Part shown: piece after piece, positions 1,959 to 11,806 of the stretch
How the letters are laid out: every line of letters begins with the position of its first letter
Numbering within the stretch: position 1 is the first letter of the stretch
From: a virus
DNA: 12,658 nt
Strand: one strand, 5' to 3'
Virus genome (UHGV): UHGV-1796775
The notes under the pieces: generated by a model
What the model saw: only the letters and a program-made list of their open reading frames with translations
The model's database searches: none
Told to the model about the DNA's origin: nothing
Made by a program: the position numbers and the translations under genes

Positions 1959-2201
1959 TCATGCTCCGGTAGTGAACAGGTCTAACGCTTCCTTCGATTT
2001 ACGCACCGCTTCGATAGTTCGGGTCGTGATATCTGAATTAGCGCCGCCTGACTGGAAGTGAATTTTGAATAGCTCAAGCTTCAGCTCGTCAGTGCCAATG
2101 AACTGAAATGCCTCCTCTGCGGCTGCGTTCTGGTTCATGACCAGTTTGTAAATCTCTAACTGGAATTTCTGTTCTTCAGTCATGGGAATAATCTCTGCCA
2201 T
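1959..2201 (-). CDS. Hypothetical protein, 80 aa
   Basis: Minus-strand ORF with ATG at 2201 and an alternative ATG at 2183. No convincing RBS for the first ATG. It sits between the lysis and packaging modules; no recognisable motif. Confidence 0.5.
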   Translation of the reverse strand: MAEIIPMTEEQKFQLEIYKLVMNQNAAAEEAFQFIGTDELKLELFKIHFQSGGANSDITTRTIEAVRKSKEALDLFTTGA

Positions 2202-2304
2202 TGTTGGCTACATTTATCCGTTAAAAGGGATATCAGTTAAGTTATCCCGTGTAGGGTATAAGCCATTATCAAAGCCACTCTGTAGGGAATGGCTTTTGTA
2301 ATAA

Positions 2305-2685
2305 CTACTGTTCGCTTAGCTTCTGCTTCAGCAAGTAACCTTCTAGCATCCAGATTTTGTTTACAGCATTTTGCCGGGCAATCTTCCGACCAATTTCTGC
2401 ATCAAAATTTTCCGGACTTGCACAGGCACTCTCTCCGGTGACGGTGAAGCCATTCTTCAGCACCAGTACGCAGAAAGTGAGCAACTTCAATGGCGATAAA
2501 TCACGATCGCCTTCTTCTGGTTTTTCTCTGCCACAATATTCGTTGCTGGAAATGGCACCATTACGTCCATCATAAGCAGTAAAGTAATGCTCGCTTTTAA
2601 TCACGTCTTCGATGTGCTGCGGGGTGATTCGCGGTGCCGTTTTTCCTTTCTCAACGATTTCTTTTTCGATTTGCTGGTCGTTCAT
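2305..2685 (-). CDS. Hypothetical phage protein, 126 aa
   Basis: Minus-strand ORF with ATG at 2685 and an AGGGT Shine-Dalgarno about 8 nt upstream. Its stop codon is immediately followed by a conserved hairpin element. Function unknown. Confidence 0.6.
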   Translation of the reverse strand: MNDQQIEKEIVEKGKTAPRITPQHIEDVIKSEHYFTAYDGRNGAISSNEYCGREKPEEGDRDLSPLKLLTFCVLVLKNGFTVTGESACASPENFDAEIGRKIARQNAVNKIWMLEGYLLKQKLSEQ

Positions 2686-2911
2686 AATTATGACCCTGTG
2701 GAGTGGTTGCTTGATTAGGATGTCTTTCCATCAGTCCGCCACCACAAAGAATCTTTTTTGCCATAAGGCAGGAGGTTCATCTTTCAGTGGCTGCCAGTGT
2801 TATTTCCCCACTTACTGGCTTGGGTTGTTTCGTGGTACTGCCGTTAACTGGTTACCCAGAATAAATTCCGGTTTCATTATCAAGCCCACCCGTAGATAGG
2901 CTTTGTAATGG

Positions 2912-3199
2912 CTACTTCTTCAGAAATGATTCGATGAACTCACGCCGGGGATGACGATAGTTCAGAATATCTTCTGGCATCCTCATAAAGCGGTTGTTGC
3001 CGTCTTTGGCAGTAACAAAACAGCTGTGAACTCCGCAGACATCCGTTTTGATTGTGTCGCTATACTCAAAAAGCAACTGAGCCATCTTCTCTTGCCATTC
3101 TGGCGGCATAGCCTCCATGAATACTCGCGGCATCACGCAGAACGGCGCATGCGTAAGACCAAACCACAGTTGCAGGTCTTTACGATATTCTTCATCCAT
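2912..3199 (-). CDS. Hypothetical protein, 95 aa
   Basis: Minus-strand ORF with ATG at 3199 and an AAGGT Shine-Dalgarno about 7 nt upstream. It is preceded by an intrinsic-terminator-like hairpin and followed by a conserved hairpin element. No recognisable motif. Confidence 0.55.
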   Translation of the reverse strand: MDEEYRKDLQLWFGLTHAPFCVMPRVFMEAMPPEWQEKMAQLLFEYSDTIKTDVCGVHSCFVTAKDGNNRFMRMPEDILNYRHPRREFIESFLKK

Positions 3200-3417: not shown

Positions 3418-3855
3418 TCATCGAAGGCATTGCGTCCTGATGTATTCCTGCAGGTAGTTAACCTGCGCGGTTATCCTGTCGATTCCACTTCGGAGACGGT
3501 AATAATTGAGTTCAGCATCTGCTGTAAGTCCTGGACTTTCTCCATCGCCCATGCCGCTGGCTCCGGTCGTTGACTTTGCACAGGTGGCGGCGACTTGCAG
3601 GCGCTTACGCCCAGCAGAAACATCAGCACGGAGACTTTCGATAGTCGCGTTAGCATCAGCAAGCTCCTTTGTATATCTGGCGTCGAGTTCTGCTACATCA
3701 CGTTGACGCTTCTGCATGTCAGCGATTGTGGATGTGGCCTTATCGCGCTGCTCTTTGTAGGCGATGGCGTTATCACGGTAATGATTAACCGCCCATGACA
3801 GACAGACGATGATGCAGATAACCAGAGCGGAGATAATCGCGGTGACTCTGCTCAT
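3418..3855 (-). CDS. Rz: Rz i-spanin (inner-membrane spanin subunit), 145 aa
   Basis: ATG at 3855 overlaps the R stop (ATGA). N-terminal TM segment [23 protein letters not shown] matches lambda Rz from memory; the rest is homologous but diverged. Rz1 is embedded in the +1 frame. Confidence 0.85.
3471..3656 (-). CDS. Rz1: Rz1 o-spanin (outer-membrane lipoprotein), 61 aa
   Basis: Embedded inside Rz in another frame. ATG at 3656 with AAGGAG 7 nt upstream (the ORF track's 3662 start is a TTG). Signal peptide with lipobox VSAC followed by a proline-rich stretch, as expected for Rz1. Confidence 0.75.
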
Positions 3856-4328
3856 ACCTCAATCTCTCTGACCGTTCCACCCGCTTCTTTGAATTTTGCA
3901 ATCAGGCTGTCAGCCTTATGCTCGAACTGACCATAACCAGCGCCAGGCAGTGAAGCCCAGATATTGCTGCAACGGTCGATAGCCTGACGAATATCACCGC
4001 GATCAATCATCGGCAAAGCGCCACGCTCCTTAATCTGCTGCAATGCAACAGCATCCTGGCTTTTAGGAGAGAAGTCTTTCAGGCCAAGCTGCTTACGATA
4101 GGCATCCCACCAACGGGAAAGAAGCTGGTAACGCCCGGCGGCTGTTGATTTGAGTTTTGGGTTTAGCGTGACAAGTTTGCGAGGGTGATCAGAGTAATCA
4201 GTGAATAGCTCTCCGCCTACAATGACGTCATAACCATGATTTCTGGTTTTCTGTCGTCCGTTATCAGTCCCCTCTGACCACGCCAGCATATCGAGGAACG
4301 CCTTACGTTGATTATTGATTTCCACCAT
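3852..4328 (-). CDS. R: Endolysin R (lambda-type lytic transglycosylase), 158 aa
   Basis: Translation [39 protein letters not shown]... matches lambda R from memory nearly residue for residue. Start overlaps the S 3' end. Confidence 0.93.
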
Positions 4329-4635
4329 CTTCTACTCCGGCTTTTTTAGCAGCGAAGCGTTTGATAAGCGAACCAATCGAGTCAGTACCGATGTAGCCGA
4401 TGAACACGCTCGTTATATAAGCGAGATTGCTACTTAGTCCGGCGAAGTCGAGAAGATCACGAATGAACCAGGCGATAATGGCGCACATCGTTGCGTCGAT
4501 TACTGTTTTTGTAAACGCACCGCCATTATATCTGCCGCGAAGGTACGCCATTGCAAACGCAAGGATTGCCCCGATGCCTTGTTCCTTTGCCGCAAGAATG
4601 GCGGCTAACAGGTCATGTTTTTCTGGCATCTTCAT
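4312..4635 (-). CDS. S: Holin S (class I; dual-start holin/antiholin), 107 aa
   Basis: Translation [39 protein letters not shown]... is essentially lambda S. The Met1-Lys2-Met3 dual start (ATG at 4635 and 4629) gives S107 antiholin and S105 holin. Confidence 0.93.
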
Positions 4636-7552: not shown

Positions 7553-7731
7553 CTTGTTTTCCTCGCACGTTCTCTAAGCCACCGGATATCCCACAGGTGA
7601 GCCGTGTAGTTGAAGGTTTTTACGTCAGATTCTTTTGGGATTGGCTTGCGTTTATTTCTGGAGCGTTTCGTTGGAAGGTATTTGCAGTTTTCACAGATTA
7701 TGTCGGTGATGCTTCGTCGCTGTCGTCTCAT
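7549..7731 (-). CDS. ninE: NinE, 60 aa
   Basis: Internal ATG at 7731 ([23 protein letters not shown]...) overlaps the methyltransferase stop (ATGA). The ORF-track 90-aa version is an upstream extension into that gene. Confidence 0.75.
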
Positions 7732-8255
7732 GCCGCCCTCCTGACGCCCTGCCCGATCGCCATCAATGCCGCTTTGGATACGGTAGTAAACATCCGTCGA
7801 GGACTGATGAACGGTCGCCAAATCAGCAGCATGGAGCCTTTGCTGTTTCCCTTCTTCTCCAGCCCTGTCGATGGTTCGATAAAATTAATCCGTCCATCAG
7901 TGATAATACGAACTTCGTCAACACTCTCCAGAGCCTTGCTGAACCATCCGACAGACATATCCTCTGGCACAAGCATCACTACCGTCTGTCGTTGTTGTAT
8001 GCACTGCTCAGCGGCTTTTTCCACCCACGGCCTGATATTGCTGTACGGTGGGTTATTCCAGATTGCACCGTGGCTTATCCACTCAGAATTTAGCGCGTCG
8101 TCGGCCTCAGTTAGCCAGTGAGCGCACAGAGCATTTTTGTCGCTCGCTGCCGAATCCAGCCAGAATCCAAACTCAATATCCAGTGCATCAAAAAGCCAAA
8201 GCGGCGTTTGCCAGCAGTCCTTGTCGTGTGCTGGCGTATTTGATTTGATAGTCAT
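7728..8255 (-). CDS. Phage Dam-type DNA N6-adenine methyltransferase, 175 aa
   Basis: Catalytic NPPY motif ([10 protein letters not shown]) and the typical N-terminal [13 protein letters not shown] block of the phage Dam family. Preferred start is the ATG at 8255 (ATGA overlap with the NinB stop, GGAAGG Shine-Dalgarno); an alternative ATG at 8282 would add 9 residues. Confidence 0.8.
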
Positions 8256-8698
8256 GCAGCCTTCCCTTTTCGTTGTGACCATTCATACTCTCGCCGGGAG
8301 TCATCACTCCACCGCACGTTGCGCTCTGAGCCGAACCAGAACATGATTTCGATAAGCTCAGTCATGCTGGCCTTTCGCATTTTGCTGGTACGCACTCCAA
8401 GCATAACAACGCCACCGTCGATACCAGGCGCACTTCGTTGCTCCAGTTTTTTGGTCTTAAGCCACAGAGCAGTGAACAGATCTTTCCAGTCCTCCGGCGC
8501 AAGTCTCTGTCCATGCCAAAGCACCTGACGCGAAACATCGTTCAGCATCGGCCACATACGGTCATTCTGCGCTTTGCTCCGCTTGGGTTCTTTAATGTGG
8601 ACTTCGTGAGGTGACTTGTCGTCGATGGGAAGTGAGAGTATTGCGTCTATGGCGTTGTTTCTGATTGCTTCGTTGCGAAGCATGTATATTTGCTTCAT
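8252..8698 (-). CDS. ninB: NinB (Orf-family recombination mediator), 148 aa
   Basis: Homologous to lambda NinB from memory (e.g. LNDVSRQVLWHG, RNVRWSDD). ATG at 8698 with GAGGT upstream. Confidence 0.85.
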   Translation of the reverse strand: MKQIYMLRNEAIRNNAIDAILSLPIDDKSPHEVHIKEPKRSKAQNDRMWPMLNDVSRQVLWHGQRLAPEDWKDLFTALWLKTKKLEQRSAPGIDGGVVMLGVRTSKMRKASMTELIEIMFWFGSERNVRWSDDSRREYEWSQRKGKAA

Positions 8699-8720
8699 CG
8701 TTACCTCGACTTAATTCTGC

Positions 8721-9047
8721 TCATTGATACCCTCTCTCACTTAATCGCCTCCACGCTTCGTTAAACTCCTCTCTGGTTGCGCCGGATTTTCTTTCTTCAA
8801 ACATCATGCATTCGCTGATGTCTCCCCATGACTTTGGTCGCTTTTCAGCGAACAGATCATCCCATTCGAATACCCAGCGGCCTGATTTTCGGTAGTGGTA
8901 AATGGTCAGCCATGTTGTGCTGTTCGCTGGATACCCATAGAGAACTTCGACTTTTTGATCACGGTCTTTATGCTTTTTCAGCAGGATAAAGCCAGCAACC
9001 AGTGAAGCTCCGGCAAGAATGATGATTGGAATTTGCCAGTCAGCCAC
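8721..9047 (-). CDS. Hypothetical membrane-anchored protein, 108 aa
   Basis: GTG start at 9047 with a strong GGAGGG Shine-Dalgarno 4 nt upstream. One N-terminal TM helix (IPIIILAGASLVAGFILL) followed by a basic stretch and a charged, Trp-rich soluble domain. No family recognised. Confidence 0.55.
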   Translation of the reverse strand: MADWQIPIIILAGASLVAGFILLKKHKDRDQKVEVLYGYPANSTTWLTIYHYRKSGRWVFEWDDLFAEKRPKSWGDISECMMFEERKSGATREEFNEAWRRLSERGYQ

Positions 9048-9059
9048 ACTTCCCTCCGC

Positions 9060-9266
9060 TTAACTCACAAAACTCCACGCCATTTTTGCTACGACAACAG
9101 GCATAACACCGATAATCACCCACAGGAGAATGCTACCGAAAAGCACACCCACCATGTCTTTACCTTCGCCTACCAACCGGACAAAACTGCTGGCAACCAC
9201 AATGAACGTCGCCACCATCCACATAGCACCGAGAATCCTCAATGCAGAGAAAATTAACTCAACCAC
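9060..9266 (-). CDS. Hypothetical small integral membrane protein, 68 aa (two predicted TM helices)
   Basis: GTG start at 9266 with GGGGGAGAG upstream. Two hydrophobic segments separated by a GEGKD turn. Its stop abuts the RBS of the next ORF. No family recognised. Confidence 0.5.
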   Translation of the reverse strand: MVELIFSALRILGAMWMVATFIVVASSFVRLVGEGKDMVGVLFGSILLWVIIGVMPVVVAKMAWSFVS

Positions 9267-9280
9267 GATTTACTCTCCCC

Positions 9281-9313
9281 CAAATAAAAAGGCCTGCGAT
9301 TACCAGCAGGCCT
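9281..9313 (-). terminator. Intrinsic terminator downstream of the helicase gene (tR2-like position)
   Basis: Perfect 8-bp GC-rich inverted repeat AGGCCTGC / GCAGGCCT (plus 9290-9297 and 9306-9313) with an 8-nt loop, followed on the minus-strand RNA by UUUUUAUUU. Confidence 0.7.
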
Positions 9314-9341
9314 GCTATCAGCTCAGTGATGTAGATGGTCA

Positions 9342-10778
9342 TCAGAATCCTCCTTTCTTCTTGGACTGCGGTTCCTCGCGTTCACGGCGGCGCATTTCAG
9401 CAGACTGTTGGTCTGTGTCATAAATAGCGCCATTTGCCTGAATGCAATACACCGTGCCGGTATTGCCATGACGATTGAGACGAAGGATTAGTTCAGTTTC
9501 ACCAGGTGGAACACTGTCATCAAAAGCGCCTTCACGATGGATCCCCACCCAATAATCGCAATCCTGTTCAATCTGCCCTGTATCTCGTGAGTCACTTGGT
9601 AATGGGCGTTTATTGGTTCGGCTTTCCAGTGCGCGGTTAAGCTGCGTCAGAAGCACAACAACGCAATCAAGCTCTTTGGCAAGGTTCTTCAGTCCTTTGG
9701 TGATCATGCCGTAGGCAAGGTCGTTGCGATCGGCCTTCTCAGCGGTCATTAGTGTCAGGTAATCGACCAGAATCATGCCAACACATCCTTTTTCTCGCTT
9801 GATTCGACGGCTTTCGCTGACGATTTGAGCCAGAGATAATCCCGGCGTGTCGTCGATGTAAAGCAGGTCGATTTCACTCAAGCGATTGGCTGTTTCGATC
9901 GCCCTGTTGAAGTCACCATCGTAATCACCCTGATAGCCGTCATCAGCGTCATTTGTCGCCGGAAGGTAAAAAATATTCGGGTTAACACCTGACTTCTGTC
10001 CTACCAGTTTTTCCAGTATCTGGTCACCGGGCATTTCAAGGCTGAACATCAGAGCAGGCTTTTTCTCATGCACTGCGCAGTTGATTGCCATCTGGCTGTA
10101 TAGTGTCGTTTTCCCCATCTTAGGGCGAGCGCCAATGACAAACAGAGAGCCTTTCACCAGACCTTTCGGTGACAGCATCCTGTCCAGCGATGGGATCCCT
10201 GTGCTCATTCCTCGCTGTTCGCCTGACGGGTCAAATCGCTTCTCAAGGTCGCTAACCCAGTCTTCCATGACCTCACCAAATGAGCGAAGGCCGCGACGCG
10301 ATCCGGTTTTTGCATGGTCTGTCAGTTGCGTGAAAATCGCCTGAATAGCTTCGTACTTCTGCGTTGCAGTCATTCCGTTGCGGGAATAGAGCAATTCCGT
10401 CGCTTCAGTCATGCGGTTGATGGCGTAGCGTTCCATTGCGGTTTCACGAACCTGCATTGCATAGGCAACGATGTTTGCGGCGCTTGGCGTGTTCTTTGCG
10501 ATCTCAGCGATATAAGCAAAACCGCCAACAGACGCCGTTAACGATTTACGCTCCAGTTCATCGAAAAGCGTCAGGCCATCTACTGGCTTTTGCTCCCGGT
10601 GCATTCTGGTTATTTCTTCGAAAAGGATTTTGTGTGGTCGGCTGTAAAATGAATCAGGCTTCAGCATCGCCAGAACTTTCTGGACGCGCTCACTGCTGTC
10701 ATCATCCAGAAGCAATCCACCAATCACCGCCTGCTCTGCCTCGATGCTATGGGGCGGCGCATAAAAATTATCGGTCAT
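9342..10778 (-). CDS. DnaB-family replicative DNA helicase, 478 aa
   Basis: Walker A GARPKMGKTT and conserved DnaB C-terminal domain blocks (LVDYLTLM, TGQIEQDCDY). ATG at 10778 with GAGGGTGA upstream (the ORF-track start at 10793 is a GTG). Overlaps the initiator gene end by 11 nt. Confidence 0.9.
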   Translation of the reverse strand: MTDNFYAPPHSIEAEQAVIGGLLLDDDSSERVQKVLAMLKPDSFYSRPHKILFEEITRMHREQKPVDGLTLFDELERKSLTASVGGFAYIAEIAKNTPSAANIVAYAMQVRETAMERYAINRMTEATELLYSRNGMTATQKYEAIQAIFTQLTDHAKTGSRRGLRSFGEVMEDWVSDLEKRFDPSGEQRGMSTGIPSLDRMLSPKGLVKGSLFVIGARPKMGKTTLYSQMAINCAVHEKKPALMFSLEMPGDQILEKLVGQKSGVNPNIFYLPATNDADDGYQGDYDGDFNRAIETANRLSEIDLLYIDDTPGLSLAQIVSESRRIKREKGCVGMILVDYLTLMTAEKADRNDLAYGMITKGLKNLAKELDCVVVLLTQLNRALESRTNKRPLPSDSRDTGQIEQDCDYWVGIHREGAFDDSVPPGETELILRLNRHGNTGTVYCIQANGAIYDTDQQSAEMRRREREEPQSKKKGGF

Positions 10779-11667
10779 CGTGTTCACCCTCACGAACTTT
10801 CAGGTAGGTATTGTCGTTAAGCAGGAAATCAAATCCCTTTTTGTGCCAGACAGTTCCGCGTTGATGGTTTGGACGCTCTTCGAACATCCATCGGCAATTT
10901 TCGCCTACGTAGCTCAAATAATTTCTCCAGTCCTGCATCGTGAACCCATGCCCGTCAAGCTGGCGGGTTATCACTCCGGCTTTGCGCCAGAACGTTCGGA
11001 TCTGGTTTTTACGCTTGTCATTCAGTGCGCGGATTCTTGGCGCTTCAGGAAGGATTTCGTGGTAAGCATCGACAACATCCTGACAGCTGACGGAAGGTTT
11101 TTTCTTGTCAGACTTTTTGTCTGCTGTGGCACTCTCTAATACGTCAGTATTAGAGATAATATTATTATATTCTTTATCTGTGGTAATTTGCTGGTAATCT
11201 GCTGGTACAGCATTGCTTACAGGCATTGGTATTGCTGGCTTTGAGGTGGTAATTTGCTGGTAATCTGCTGGTACAAAATTTGACTGATAATCGTCATATT
11301 TCTCTACCGAGAAAACTGAGAATTTACCGTGTGAAACCCAGTCAATCATGCCGAGTTTTTTGAACTTTCTAAGCAGGTACTGAACGCGATCTGGTTTGAG
11401 TCCTGTTTCAAACGCCAGAGAGTTTCTACCGCCAAGTAGCTTCCCTCTGCCTACCAGAATTTCTCCTGCGTCAGTCATTACATACTCAGGCGTATGCTTT
11501 GCTTTGAGGATTAAGTGAACCCACAGATGCGCAGCTTCTGCGTCCTTGTAAAACGGCACATCCATAATTTTACGGTGCAGCAAGGCATACCCCTTACCGC
11601 TGCTTTGATGCGGTTGTTGTAGCCTTCTGGCCTCTCTGGCTTCGGCTAGATTAGATATGTTACTCAT
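10768..11667 (-). CDS. Replication initiator (lambda O-like / P22 gp18-like), 299 aa, containing the origin
   Basis: ATG at 11667 with AAGGAG upstream. Iteron repeats and an AT-rich tract lie inside the coding sequence, giving the repeated peptide [10 protein letters not shown]. Followed directly by the helicase gene, as in lambdoid replication modules. Confidence 0.85.
11134..11178. promoter_or_regulatory. Origin AT-rich unwinding region with a 22-bp perfect palindrome
   Basis: CTCTAATAC-GTCA-GTATTAGAG (11134-11155; 9-bp perfect arms) followed by AT-rich ATAATATTATTATATTCTTTATC, immediately adjacent to the iterons. Confidence 0.6.
11180..11275. repeat. Origin iterons (ori) inside the initiator gene
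   Basis: Two exact 28-bp copies of GGTAATTTGCTGGTAATCTGCTGGTACA at 11182-11209 and 11248-11275, each made of two ~12-bp units GGTAAT(T/C)TGCTG. A degenerate unit sits between them (GGTATTGCTGG, about 11229-11239). Confidence 0.8.
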
Positions 11668-11806
11668 GACCTTTCTCCTTCTGCATCAGCTTCACCTTTT
11701 CCAACTCAGCCCGGAATCGACCAGGCTGCTTGAAGCTGGACAGGAAGCGATCACGTAGTATGTGTTTGTGAATTTTGTCCTGGTAAGGACTGAGTTGTTT
11801 TGTCAT
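11660..11806 (-). CDS. Small hypothetical protein, 48 aa, between cII and the initiator
   Basis: Not in the ORF track. ATG at 11806 with AGGAG 5 nt upstream; translation [48 protein letters not shown]. Its TAA stop overlaps the initiator ATG. The start context GGAGTCATTATGACAAA is the one I recall for lambda O. Confidence 0.5.

What the first reader, a model, noticed from the sequence alone, without database searches (positions are those of the whole stretch)
8721..9313. Unrecognised two-gene membrane module at the ren/tR2 position between the replication genes and ninB
Directly after a strong intrinsic terminator (9281-9313) lie two tightly packed genes with GTG starts and strong Shine-Dalgarno sites: a 68-aa protein with two TM helices, then a 108-aa protein with one TM anchor and a charged, Trp-rich soluble domain. 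In lambda this slot holds ren, and such slots in lambdoid prophages often carry superinfection-exclusion or abortive-infection cargo. I recognise neither protein, so a small membrane-acting exclusion, defence or toxin-like pair is plausible but unproven.
Basis: partly seen in the sequence, partly recalled or inferred. Interest (0 to 1): 0.65.

Follow-up and report, generated by a model that had tools for sequence, protein, structure and literature searches.

The report
Two unlinked small prophage accessory genes
The two small membrane-protein genes are real, but they are separate, already catalogued accessory genes of unknown function that shuffle independently among lambda-like phages, not a new two-gene defence module.

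Summary
On the minus strand, the tR2 terminator (9313-9280) is followed by a 68-aa two-helix membrane protein (9266-9060) and a 108-aa protein (9047-8721). The 108-aa protein has one N-terminal membrane helix and a conserved soluble domain. Both have GTG starts and Shine-Dalgarno sites.

- **Both genes are already catalogued as hypothetical proteins.** The 68-aa protein is PHROG 1165 (as in HK630, HK022 and Stx2a phages). The 108-aa protein is PHROG 5903 (Sf6 gp46, 98% identical).
- **They are not a module.** They sit together in 11 of 5426 complete E. coli genomes; ORF1 alone is in 454 and ORF2 alone in 108. In 80 viral contigs carrying ORF2, 8 also have ORF1. Recombination junctions lie within about 10 nt of each gene's ends.
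- **The slot is not ren's.** It lies after tR2, and ren coexists with these genes in other prophages.
- **A lysogen-expressed defence role is disfavoured.** No promoter was found, so expression should need read-through of tR2 during lytic growth. The ORF2 domain also occurs in virulent phages, mostly without a membrane helix.

Charge distribution suggests the ORF2 domain faces the cytoplasm. It matches no known fold or Pfam family. Function is unknown; interest is low.

The parts
9342..10793 (-). DnaB-like replicative helicase, the upstream neighbour. Its stop codon overlaps the NinA start (ATGA).
   Evidence: Pfam DnaB_C E = 3e-60 and DnaB E = 3.5e-31; ORF list; sequence.
9259..9342 (-). 27-aa NinA ORF (MTIYITELIAGLLVIAGLFIWGRVNRG). 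This is the conserved 'boundary sequence' that contains tR2. It overlaps the ORF1 start by 8 nt.
   Evidence: Translation. Annotated as NinA / bsq6 boundary sequence in Sf6, HK620, HK630 and SPN9CC. 93% mean DNA identity across five phages whose flanks differ.
9280..9313 (-). Intrinsic terminator tR2: stem AGGCCTGC/GCAGGCCT, 8-nt loop, T-run.
   Evidence: Terminator scan; RNA fold; annotated as tR2 in Sf6 and HK620.
9060..9266 (-). ORF1: 68-aa two-helix inner-membrane hairpin protein, PHROG 1165, GTG start. An independent single-gene cassette.
   Evidence: Homologues are 68 aa long. Conservation over the full 68 aa down to 41% identity. AlphaFold2 hairpin at pLDDT 91.7. Clean indel of about 220 bp relative to Sf6 and Oslo.
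8721..9047 (-). ORF2: 108-aa protein, PHROG 5903 (Sf6 gp46 family), GTG start. An independent single-gene cassette.
   Evidence: AlphaFold2 pLDDT 86.8. Junctions lie 9 nt upstream of the start, and at the stop codon or 6 nt before it.
8979..9035 (-). ORF2 residues 5-23: N-terminal membrane anchor. Its sequence is variable, and it is absent from most distant family members.
   Evidence: Hydropathy; model helix 5-27. 25 of 29 close relatives but only 14 of 36 in the broad set have it. N-flank acidic, C-flank basic.
8724..8957 (-). ORF2 residues 31-108: conserved soluble alpha/beta domain (four strands plus a C-terminal helix), inferred to be cytoplasmic. Core motif YGYP...WLT.YH.R...FEWDDLF..RP.
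8252..8698 (-). ninB, the downstream neighbour and the start of the conserved nin recombination genes.
   Evidence: Pfam NinB E = 2.8e-48.

Best explanation
These are two separate single-gene accessory cassettes, stacked in the variable slot just downstream of the conserved NinA/tR2 boundary sequence. The slot lies in the early-right (pR) operon of a lambda-like prophage, between the replication genes and ninB.

Shown:
- Both are real, conserved protein-coding genes.
- They assort independently.
- Recombination junctions lie within about 10 nt of their start and stop codons.
- No promoter-like site was found near them.

Inferred: they are transcribed only when pR transcription reads through tR2, that is, during N-antiterminated lytic development. 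Translation is chained helicase -> NinA -> ORF1 by overlapping stop and start codons.

ORF1 is a 68-aa inner-membrane helical hairpin. ORF2 is a small alpha/beta domain held at the cytoplasmic face of the inner membrane by a dispensable N-terminal helix (N-terminus out, C-terminus in).

Most likely function (inference only): ORF2 binds a conserved cytoplasmic partner in enterobacteria through its invariant aromatic/acidic surface (YGYP, WLT.Y, EWDDLF..RP). That would make it an early host-takeover or counter-defence type accessory factor. ORF1 would act separately at the membrane. Neither is likely to be essential.
For: Independence of the two genes:
- Sf6 and Oslo run from NinA/tR2 straight into ORF2. 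HK630 has ORF1 followed directly by ninB.
- In E. coli genomes ORF1 is in 454, ORF2 in 108, and both adjacent in 11.
- In IMG/VR, 8 of 80 ORF2 loci have ORF1 upstream. Upstream modules: DnaB type 53, toprim type 12, P/ren type 13, unidentified 2. Downstream: ninB directly 33, or Sf6 gp47/48-like genes first 46.

Real genes:
- ORF1 homologues keep the 68-aa length and 23 invariant positions down to 41% identity.
- The ORF2 family keeps a motif core down to about 25% identity.

Operon context:
- No sigma-70-like promoter on either strand in 8200-9800, and the only minus-strand terminator upstream of the genes is tR2.
- The helicase stop and NinA start share ATGA; NinA and ORF1 overlap by 8 nt.

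ORF2 domain is the functional part and is cytoplasmic:
- The membrane-helix sequence is variable, and 22 of 36 family members lack it.
- Several helix-less members carry C..GxH plus CxRC motifs that look like zinc ligands.
- In helix-bearing members the N-flank is acidic and the C-flank basic.

Early or lytic role:
- Relatives occur in virulent phages: T5-like KookSpook, jumbo phage Goslar, and IME207/Seszw, where the gene lies between primase and helicase.
- One relative lies next to DNA polymerase A and HNH genes in a 148-kb contig.
Against: - No functional data exist for either family. Literature searches found nothing.
- The topology and the binding role are inferred from sequence alone.
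- The promoter scan covers only canonical sigma-70 sites, so weak or activator-dependent promoters and leaky read-through in lysogens are not excluded.
- Stacking of three small membrane ORFs (NinA, ORF1, ORF2) could still allow an interaction when they co-occur.
- The neighbourhood with replication genes may only reflect early-region placement.
Confidence: 0.6

Rival explanations
1. One reading: ORF1 and ORF2 form one co-functioning membrane module (superinfection exclusion, abortive infection, or toxin/antitoxin-like) that protects the lysogen.
For: Both have membrane helices and are adjacent and tightly packed. Both are variable cargo. Small membrane proteins are a common kind of exclusion factor (general knowledge; review PMC11436027 listed).
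Against: Co-occurrence is rare: 11 of 108 ORF2 genomes and 11 of 454 ORF1 genomes have the pair, and 8 of 80 IMG/VR loci. Each gene has its own junctions. There are no PADLOC hits. No promoter was found, and the genes lie behind tR2. The ORF2 domain occurs in virulent phages and mostly without a membrane helix.
Confidence: 0.08
2. Each protein independently blocks secondary infection during lytic growth, as T4 Imm/Sp or T5 Llp do, by acting at the inner membrane on incoming DNA or on injection factors.
For: Both localise to the inner membrane by prediction. Their position implies early expression. Virulent phages also carry ORF2 relatives. The known exclusion proteins are cited from general knowledge.
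Against: Most ORF2 family members have no membrane helix, which fits poorly with a membrane-level block. There is no sequence or fold similarity to any annotated exclusion protein.
Confidence: 0.15
3. ORF1 is a holin- or antiholin-like lysis-timing protein (two membrane helices, 68 aa, the size of a class II holin or pinholin).
For: Two transmembrane helices in a 68-aa protein. The size and topology resemble class II holins (general knowledge).
Against: The C-terminal tail is only about 8 residues with one or two positive charges. The gene lies 4.4 kb upstream of a complete lambda-type lysis cassette, in the early operon rather than the late one (holin 4312-4635, endolysin 3852-4328, Rz/Rz1 3418-3855). 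It is always located right after NinA.
Confidence: 0.05
4. One or both ORFs are chance reading frames in a non-coding spacer behind tR2.
For: The ORFs are short, and the window has 100 ORFs of at least 40 aa. HK620 leaves the ORF1 homologue unannotated.
Against: Conservation at the protein level over the full length down to 41% identity (ORF1) and about 25% identity (ORF2). Confident structure models. Shine-Dalgarno sites and coupled starts.
Confidence: 0.02

Closest known systems
Shigella phage Sf6 gene 46 protein (NP_958221) / Salmonella phage Oslo gp62; PHROG 5903
   Same: 98% identical over 107-108 of 108 aa. Same position directly after NinA/tR2. Same GTG start context, GAGGGAAGTGTG.
   Different: In Sf6 and Oslo there is no ORF1 between tR2 and this gene. 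In Sf6 it is followed by genes 47-49 before ninB. No function is assigned in any record.
HK630 gp52 / HK75, HK022, mEp235 and Stx2a-phage hypothetical protein; PHROG 1165
   Same: 88-94% identical. Same position overlapping the end of NinA. More distant 68-aa homologues (41-55% identity) sit at the same place in HK620 and P22-like Salmonella phages.
   Different: In those phages it is followed directly by ninB or by other cargo, not ORF2. Some records call a shorter 52-aa product from an internal ATG, or leave it unannotated. No function is known.
Lambda Ren
   Same: A non-essential accessory gene between the replication genes and ninB in the pR operon (general knowledge; context).
   Different: Ren lies upstream of tR2 and coexists with ORF2, or with ORF1 plus ORF2, in E2348/69 and CFSAN018748. 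There is no sequence relationship and Ren has no membrane helix.
Phage morons (for example HK97 gp15) and prophage exclusion proteins (P22 SieA/SieB, T4 Imm)
   Same: Small, dispensable, horizontally shuffled phage genes, some of which encode inner-membrane proteins.
   Different: Morons are defined as independent transcription units (PMC3594210, listed); in the classic description each has its own promoter and terminator (general knowledge). No promoter or downstream terminator was found here. There is no sequence or fold similarity.
Pfam DUF1660 (prophage protein)
   Same: One distant ORF2-family member of the C..GxH / CxRC type gives a weak hit, E = 0.0025.
   Different: The hit is below Pfam's threshold, is found in 1 of 36 members, and is not found for the window protein. 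DUF1660 itself has no known function.

Membership tests
PHROG 5903 (Sf6 gp46 family) | Significant full-length match to the family HMM | tested here: met
   E = 9.1e-76 over 1-108 of 108. All 36 members of the broad alignment match it.
PHROG 1165 | Significant full-length match to the family HMM | tested here: met
   E = 2.7e-35 over 1-68 of 68.
Two-gene defence or toxin-antitoxin type module | The two genes co-occur and are inherited as a unit | tested here: not met
   The pair is adjacent in 11 genomes, against 108 with ORF2 and 454 with ORF1, and in 8 of 80 IMG/VR loci. The cassettes have separate junctions.
Two-gene defence or toxin-antitoxin type module | Similarity to a known defence-system protein | tested here: not met
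   No PADLOC family matches ORF1, ORF2 or NinA at E <= 1.
Two-gene defence or toxin-antitoxin type module | Phage-resistance or toxicity phenotype | not testable with these tools
   This needs expression and plating experiments.
Moron (independent transcription unit expressed from the prophage) | Own promoter upstream of the gene | tested here: not met
   0 sigma-70-like sites in 8200-9800 on either strand; shuffles give 1.6 +/- 1.5. Only a consensus scan was run.
Moron (independent transcription unit expressed from the prophage) | Own terminator downstream of the gene | tested here: not met
   No minus-strand terminator-like site lies between ORF2 and ninB. The next one is a weak site at 8420-8407 inside ninB.
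Class II holin / pinholin | Two transmembrane domains in a protein of about 70 aa | tested here: met
   Hydropathy and model H2-33 / H38-67.
Class II holin / pinholin | Highly charged C-terminal cytoplasmic tail | tested here: not met
   The tail is KMAWSFVS, about 8 residues with one or two positive charges.
Class II holin / pinholin | Location in the late lysis cassette next to the endolysin | tested here: not met
   ORF1 is in the early operon, 4.4 kb from a complete S-R-Rz/Rz1 cassette at 3418-4635.
Lambda Ren | Occupies the position between P and tR2 and is homologous to Ren | tested here: not met
   Ren-carrying prophages have ren upstream of the same NinA/tR2 sequence and ORF2 downstream.

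The most novel reading that the evidence does not exclude
Probability: 0.3. Interest if true: 0.5.

Novelty: already known. Interest (0 to 1): 0.22.

Why it matters
Little changes as it stands. The window shows a textbook case of lambdoid mosaicism: single-gene cassettes swapped at a conserved boundary sequence (NinA/tR2). The proteins are catalogued but uncharacterised.

The practical value is negative. The pair should not be screened as one defence system. If the genes are tested at all, each should be tested alone and in a lytic-cycle context.

The ORF2 domain is a reasonable but not urgent candidate for host-takeover or counter-defence screens. The reasons are its strong conservation, its orphan fold, and its presence in both temperate and virulent phages.

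Tried and rejected
**Searches that found nothing for ORF1, ORF2 or NinA**
- Pfam, NCBIfam and PADLOC gave nothing above threshold.
- A profile search of PDB sequences with the ORF2 alignment gave 0 hits at E <= 10.
- Foldseek against viral models found only two uncharacterised phage relatives for ORF2 and nothing significant for ORF1.
- The afdb50 fold library was unavailable.
- Rfam found no RNA family in the window.
- A degenerate-pattern locus search with the broad alignment A3 failed for lack of a conserved stretch. The closer alignment A1 was used instead.
- An exhaustive profile search of 1.84 billion representative proteins found only 35 clusters, all short stand-alone proteins, so no informative domain fusions exist.

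**Literature**
- Searches on ninA/ninB, Sf6 gp46, nin region plus exclusion, and DUF1660 gave no functional data.
- The 'gp46' in the Gifsy-prophage defence paper is the SP6 tailspike and is unrelated.

**Ideas considered and dropped**
- EWDDLF as a beta-clamp-binding or SSB-tail-like motif. In the model it is partly inside a beta-strand of a folded domain, so mimicry of a linear motif is unsupported.
- ORF1 as a holin (see the membership test).

Full report
**What is in the sequence**

The window is a lambda-like prophage read on the minus strand. The gene order, from high to low coordinates, is:
- cro-like and lambda-type cII genes, then a DUF2740 ORF and an O-like replication protein;
- a DnaB-like helicase (9342-10793);
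- the region in question;
- ninB (8252-8698), a Dam-type methylase (7728-8282), ninE/F/G/H-like genes, a phosphatase and Q;
- a lambda-type lysis cassette and the terminase genes.

Searches give the ORFs and their family matches.

The region itself reads as follows.
- An intrinsic terminator has an 8-bp stem at 9313-9290 followed by a T-run.
- ORF1 (9266-9060, 68 aa) starts at a GTG with a Shine-Dalgarno site upstream.
- ORF2 (9047-8721, 108 aa) also starts at a GTG with a Shine-Dalgarno site upstream.
- ORF1 has two hydrophobic helices. ORF2 has one N-terminal hydrophobic helix and a charged domain with 6 Trp.

The terminator sits inside a 27-aa ORF, NinA (9342-9259). NinA starts in an ATGA overlap with the helicase stop codon, and its end overlaps the ORF1 start by 8 nt.

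**Are they genes?**

ORFs of this size are common by chance; the window has 100 of at least 40 aa. The case for coding rests on conservation.
- ORF1 matches PHROG 1165 (E = 2.7e-35) and ORF2 matches PHROG 5903 (E = 9.1e-76).
- ORF1 homologues are 68 aa long. Copies at 41-55% identity in HK620 and P22-like Salmonella phages keep that length and 23 invariant positions. Some of these lie in the first 16 codons, which supports the GTG start over the internal ATG used in some records.
- ORF2 relatives have a variable N-terminal helix and a strongly conserved soluble part (YGYP, WLT.YH.R, FEWDDLF, RP). The core survives down to about 25% identity.
- Structure models are confident. ORF2 has pLDDT 86.8, with helix 5-27, four strands and helix 92-104. 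ORF1 is a helical hairpin with pLDDT 91.7.

**Are they a module?**

They are not.
- A DNA alignment shows that Sf6 and Oslo run from '...TTTATTTGGGGGA' at the end of NinA/tR2 straight into 'GAGGGAAGTGTG', the ORF2 start. ORF1 is thus a clean indel of about 220 bp. HK630 has ORF1 followed directly by ninB, with no ORF2.
- In 5426 complete E. coli genomes, ORF1 DNA is in 454, ORF2 DNA is in 108, and the two are adjacent in 11.
- In most ORF2-bearing genomes, homology begins 9 nt before the ORF2 start. It ends either at the stop codon or 6 nt before it.
- Among 80 IMG/VR contigs with near-identical ORF2, ORF1 is upstream in 8. The replication module upstream is DnaB type in 53, toprim type in 12, lambda P/ren type in 13 and unidentified in 2. 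Downstream, ninB follows directly in 33, Sf6 gp47/48-like genes come first in 46, and one contig is cut. The window's exact arrangement occurs once.

The 84-bp NinA/tR2 segment is almost invariant across phages whose flanking genes differ (93% mean identity). The Sf6 record annotates it as a 'boundary sequence'. It probably serves as the homologous anchor that makes this slot a swapping point; that step is inference.

**Position relative to ren**

E2348/69 has O-P-ren, then the same NinA/tR2 sequence, then ORF2, ninB and the methylase. CFSAN018748 has ren, ORF1 and ORF2 in that order. The slot is therefore the one after tR2, not ren's.

**Expression**

- No sigma-70-like promoter is found on either strand in 8200-9800.
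- The only minus-strand terminator upstream of the genes is tR2.
- No terminator separates ORF2 from ninB.

By established lambda biology, genes behind tR2 are transcribed from pR only after N-mediated antitermination. The expected expression is therefore in lytic growth, not in the repressed lysogen. This is inferred and not measured, and a consensus scan can miss weak promoters.

**What ORF2 is**

The family is small.
- It has 58 clusters at 90% identity.
- It has only 35 representative clusters among 1.84 billion proteins, all 73-133 aa and stand-alone.
- It has no Pfam, NCBIfam, PADLOC or PDB sequence match.

Relatives occur outside lambdoid phages.
- Jumbo phage Goslar and Salmonella phage IME207 are the only significant Foldseek matches among viral models.
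- By tblastn, relatives are found in T5-like KookSpook, Seszw/IME207-type virulent siphophages and C1-like coliphages.
- In IME207 the gene lies between primase and helicase.
- One relative lies next to DNA polymerase A and HNH genes in a 148-kb contig.
- A Pantoea prophage carries it near the integrase end of the genome, not in the nin region.

The membrane helix is an optional add-on. It is present in 25 of 29 close relatives but only 14 of 36 across the whole family. Many helix-less members carry C..GxH plus CxRC motifs that look like zinc ligands.

In helix-bearing members the short N-terminal flank is acidic and the flank after the helix is basic. By the positive-inside rule, this puts the conserved domain in the cytoplasm.

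The activity therefore lies in a cytoplasmic domain. It is not primarily a membrane-acting protein.

**What ORF1 is**

ORF1 is a two-helix inner-membrane hairpin found in 107 phage records, all named as lambdoid, Stx-converting or P22-like phages. In every record inspected it sits directly after NinA. It has no informative similarity to anything annotated.

A holin-like reading fails for three reasons: the tail is short and weakly charged, the gene is in the early operon, and the window already has a complete lysis cassette.

**Most likely mechanism**

Well supported: two independent, dispensable delayed-early accessory genes, placed by recombination at a conserved boundary and translated in a chain from the helicase.

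Inferred with low confidence: ORF2 binds a conserved cytoplasmic partner of enterobacteria through its invariant aromatic/acidic surface. In this subfamily it would hold that partner at the inner membrane. This would be a host-takeover or counter-defence type role, in keeping with its presence in virulent phages and its early placement near replication genes. ORF1 would act separately in the membrane.

Exclusion of secondary infection during lytic growth remains a live alternative. A lysogen-protecting two-gene defence module is the least supported reading.

**Novelty and score**

Both proteins are catalogued as hypothetical proteins and are 94-98% identical to entries in well-known phage genomes. 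Their arrangement is ordinary lambdoid mosaicism. Function is unknown, and no paper in the searchable library addresses it. Interest is low. The one mildly interesting point is that the ORF2 domain is an orphan fold shared by temperate and virulent phages.

Noticed in passing
window 9259-9342 (-): The tR2 hairpin lies entirely inside the 27-aa hydrophobic NinA ORF, which starts in an ATGA overlap with the helicase stop codon. Ribosomes reinitiating at NinA would cross the hairpin, so translation might lower termination at tR2. The segment is 93% identical at the DNA level across phages with unrelated flanks, so it is unclear whether the peptide, the terminator or the recombination anchor is what is conserved.
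   Followed up: partly
proteins P0189, P0193-P0196, P0198, P0200, P0204: Distant ORF2-family members lack the membrane helix and carry C..G(W)HK plus CxRC motifs that look like zinc ligands. One gives a sub-threshold hit to Pfam DUF1660 (E = 0.0025).
   Followed up: partly
window 8643-8655, 8666-8682, 8772-8786 (+): Three terminator-like hairpins with T-runs lie on the plus strand, antisense to the 5' end of ninB and to the 3' part of ORF2. Counting both strands, the 1.6-kb region has 5 terminator-like sites against 1.5 +/- 1.2 in shuffles. The 8666-8682 palindrome would also fold in the sense ninB mRNA, at codons 6-11.
   Followed up: no
window 11660-11806 (-): A 48-aa ORF between cII and the O-like replication gene matches Pfam DUF2740 (E = 8.9e-29). 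It is another conserved small gene of unknown function in the early-right operon.
   Followed up: no
window 1959-3199 (-): Three small genes lie between Rz/Rz1 and the small terminase subunit: a 95-aa ORF with no Pfam match (2912-3199), a Phage_gp49_66 family protein (2305-2685, E = 3.4e-35) and a DUF2560 protein (1959-2201, E = 1.1e-43). This is a second cargo slot of unknown function.
   Followed up: no
window 8252-8282 (-): The Dam-type methylase ORF as listed (7728-8282) overlaps the 3' end of ninB by 31 nt, so its true start may be an internal ATG. In E2348/69 and Oslo the ninB and methylase genes are annotated with a 4-nt overlap.
   Followed up: no
L006 and L007 (Pantoea prophage contigs): A 57%-identical ORF2 relative sits in a different prophage region, near LexA-like repressor, DUF1233 and integrase genes. 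It overlaps small unknown ORFs on both sides. The family is therefore not tied to the nin slot.
   Followed up: partly
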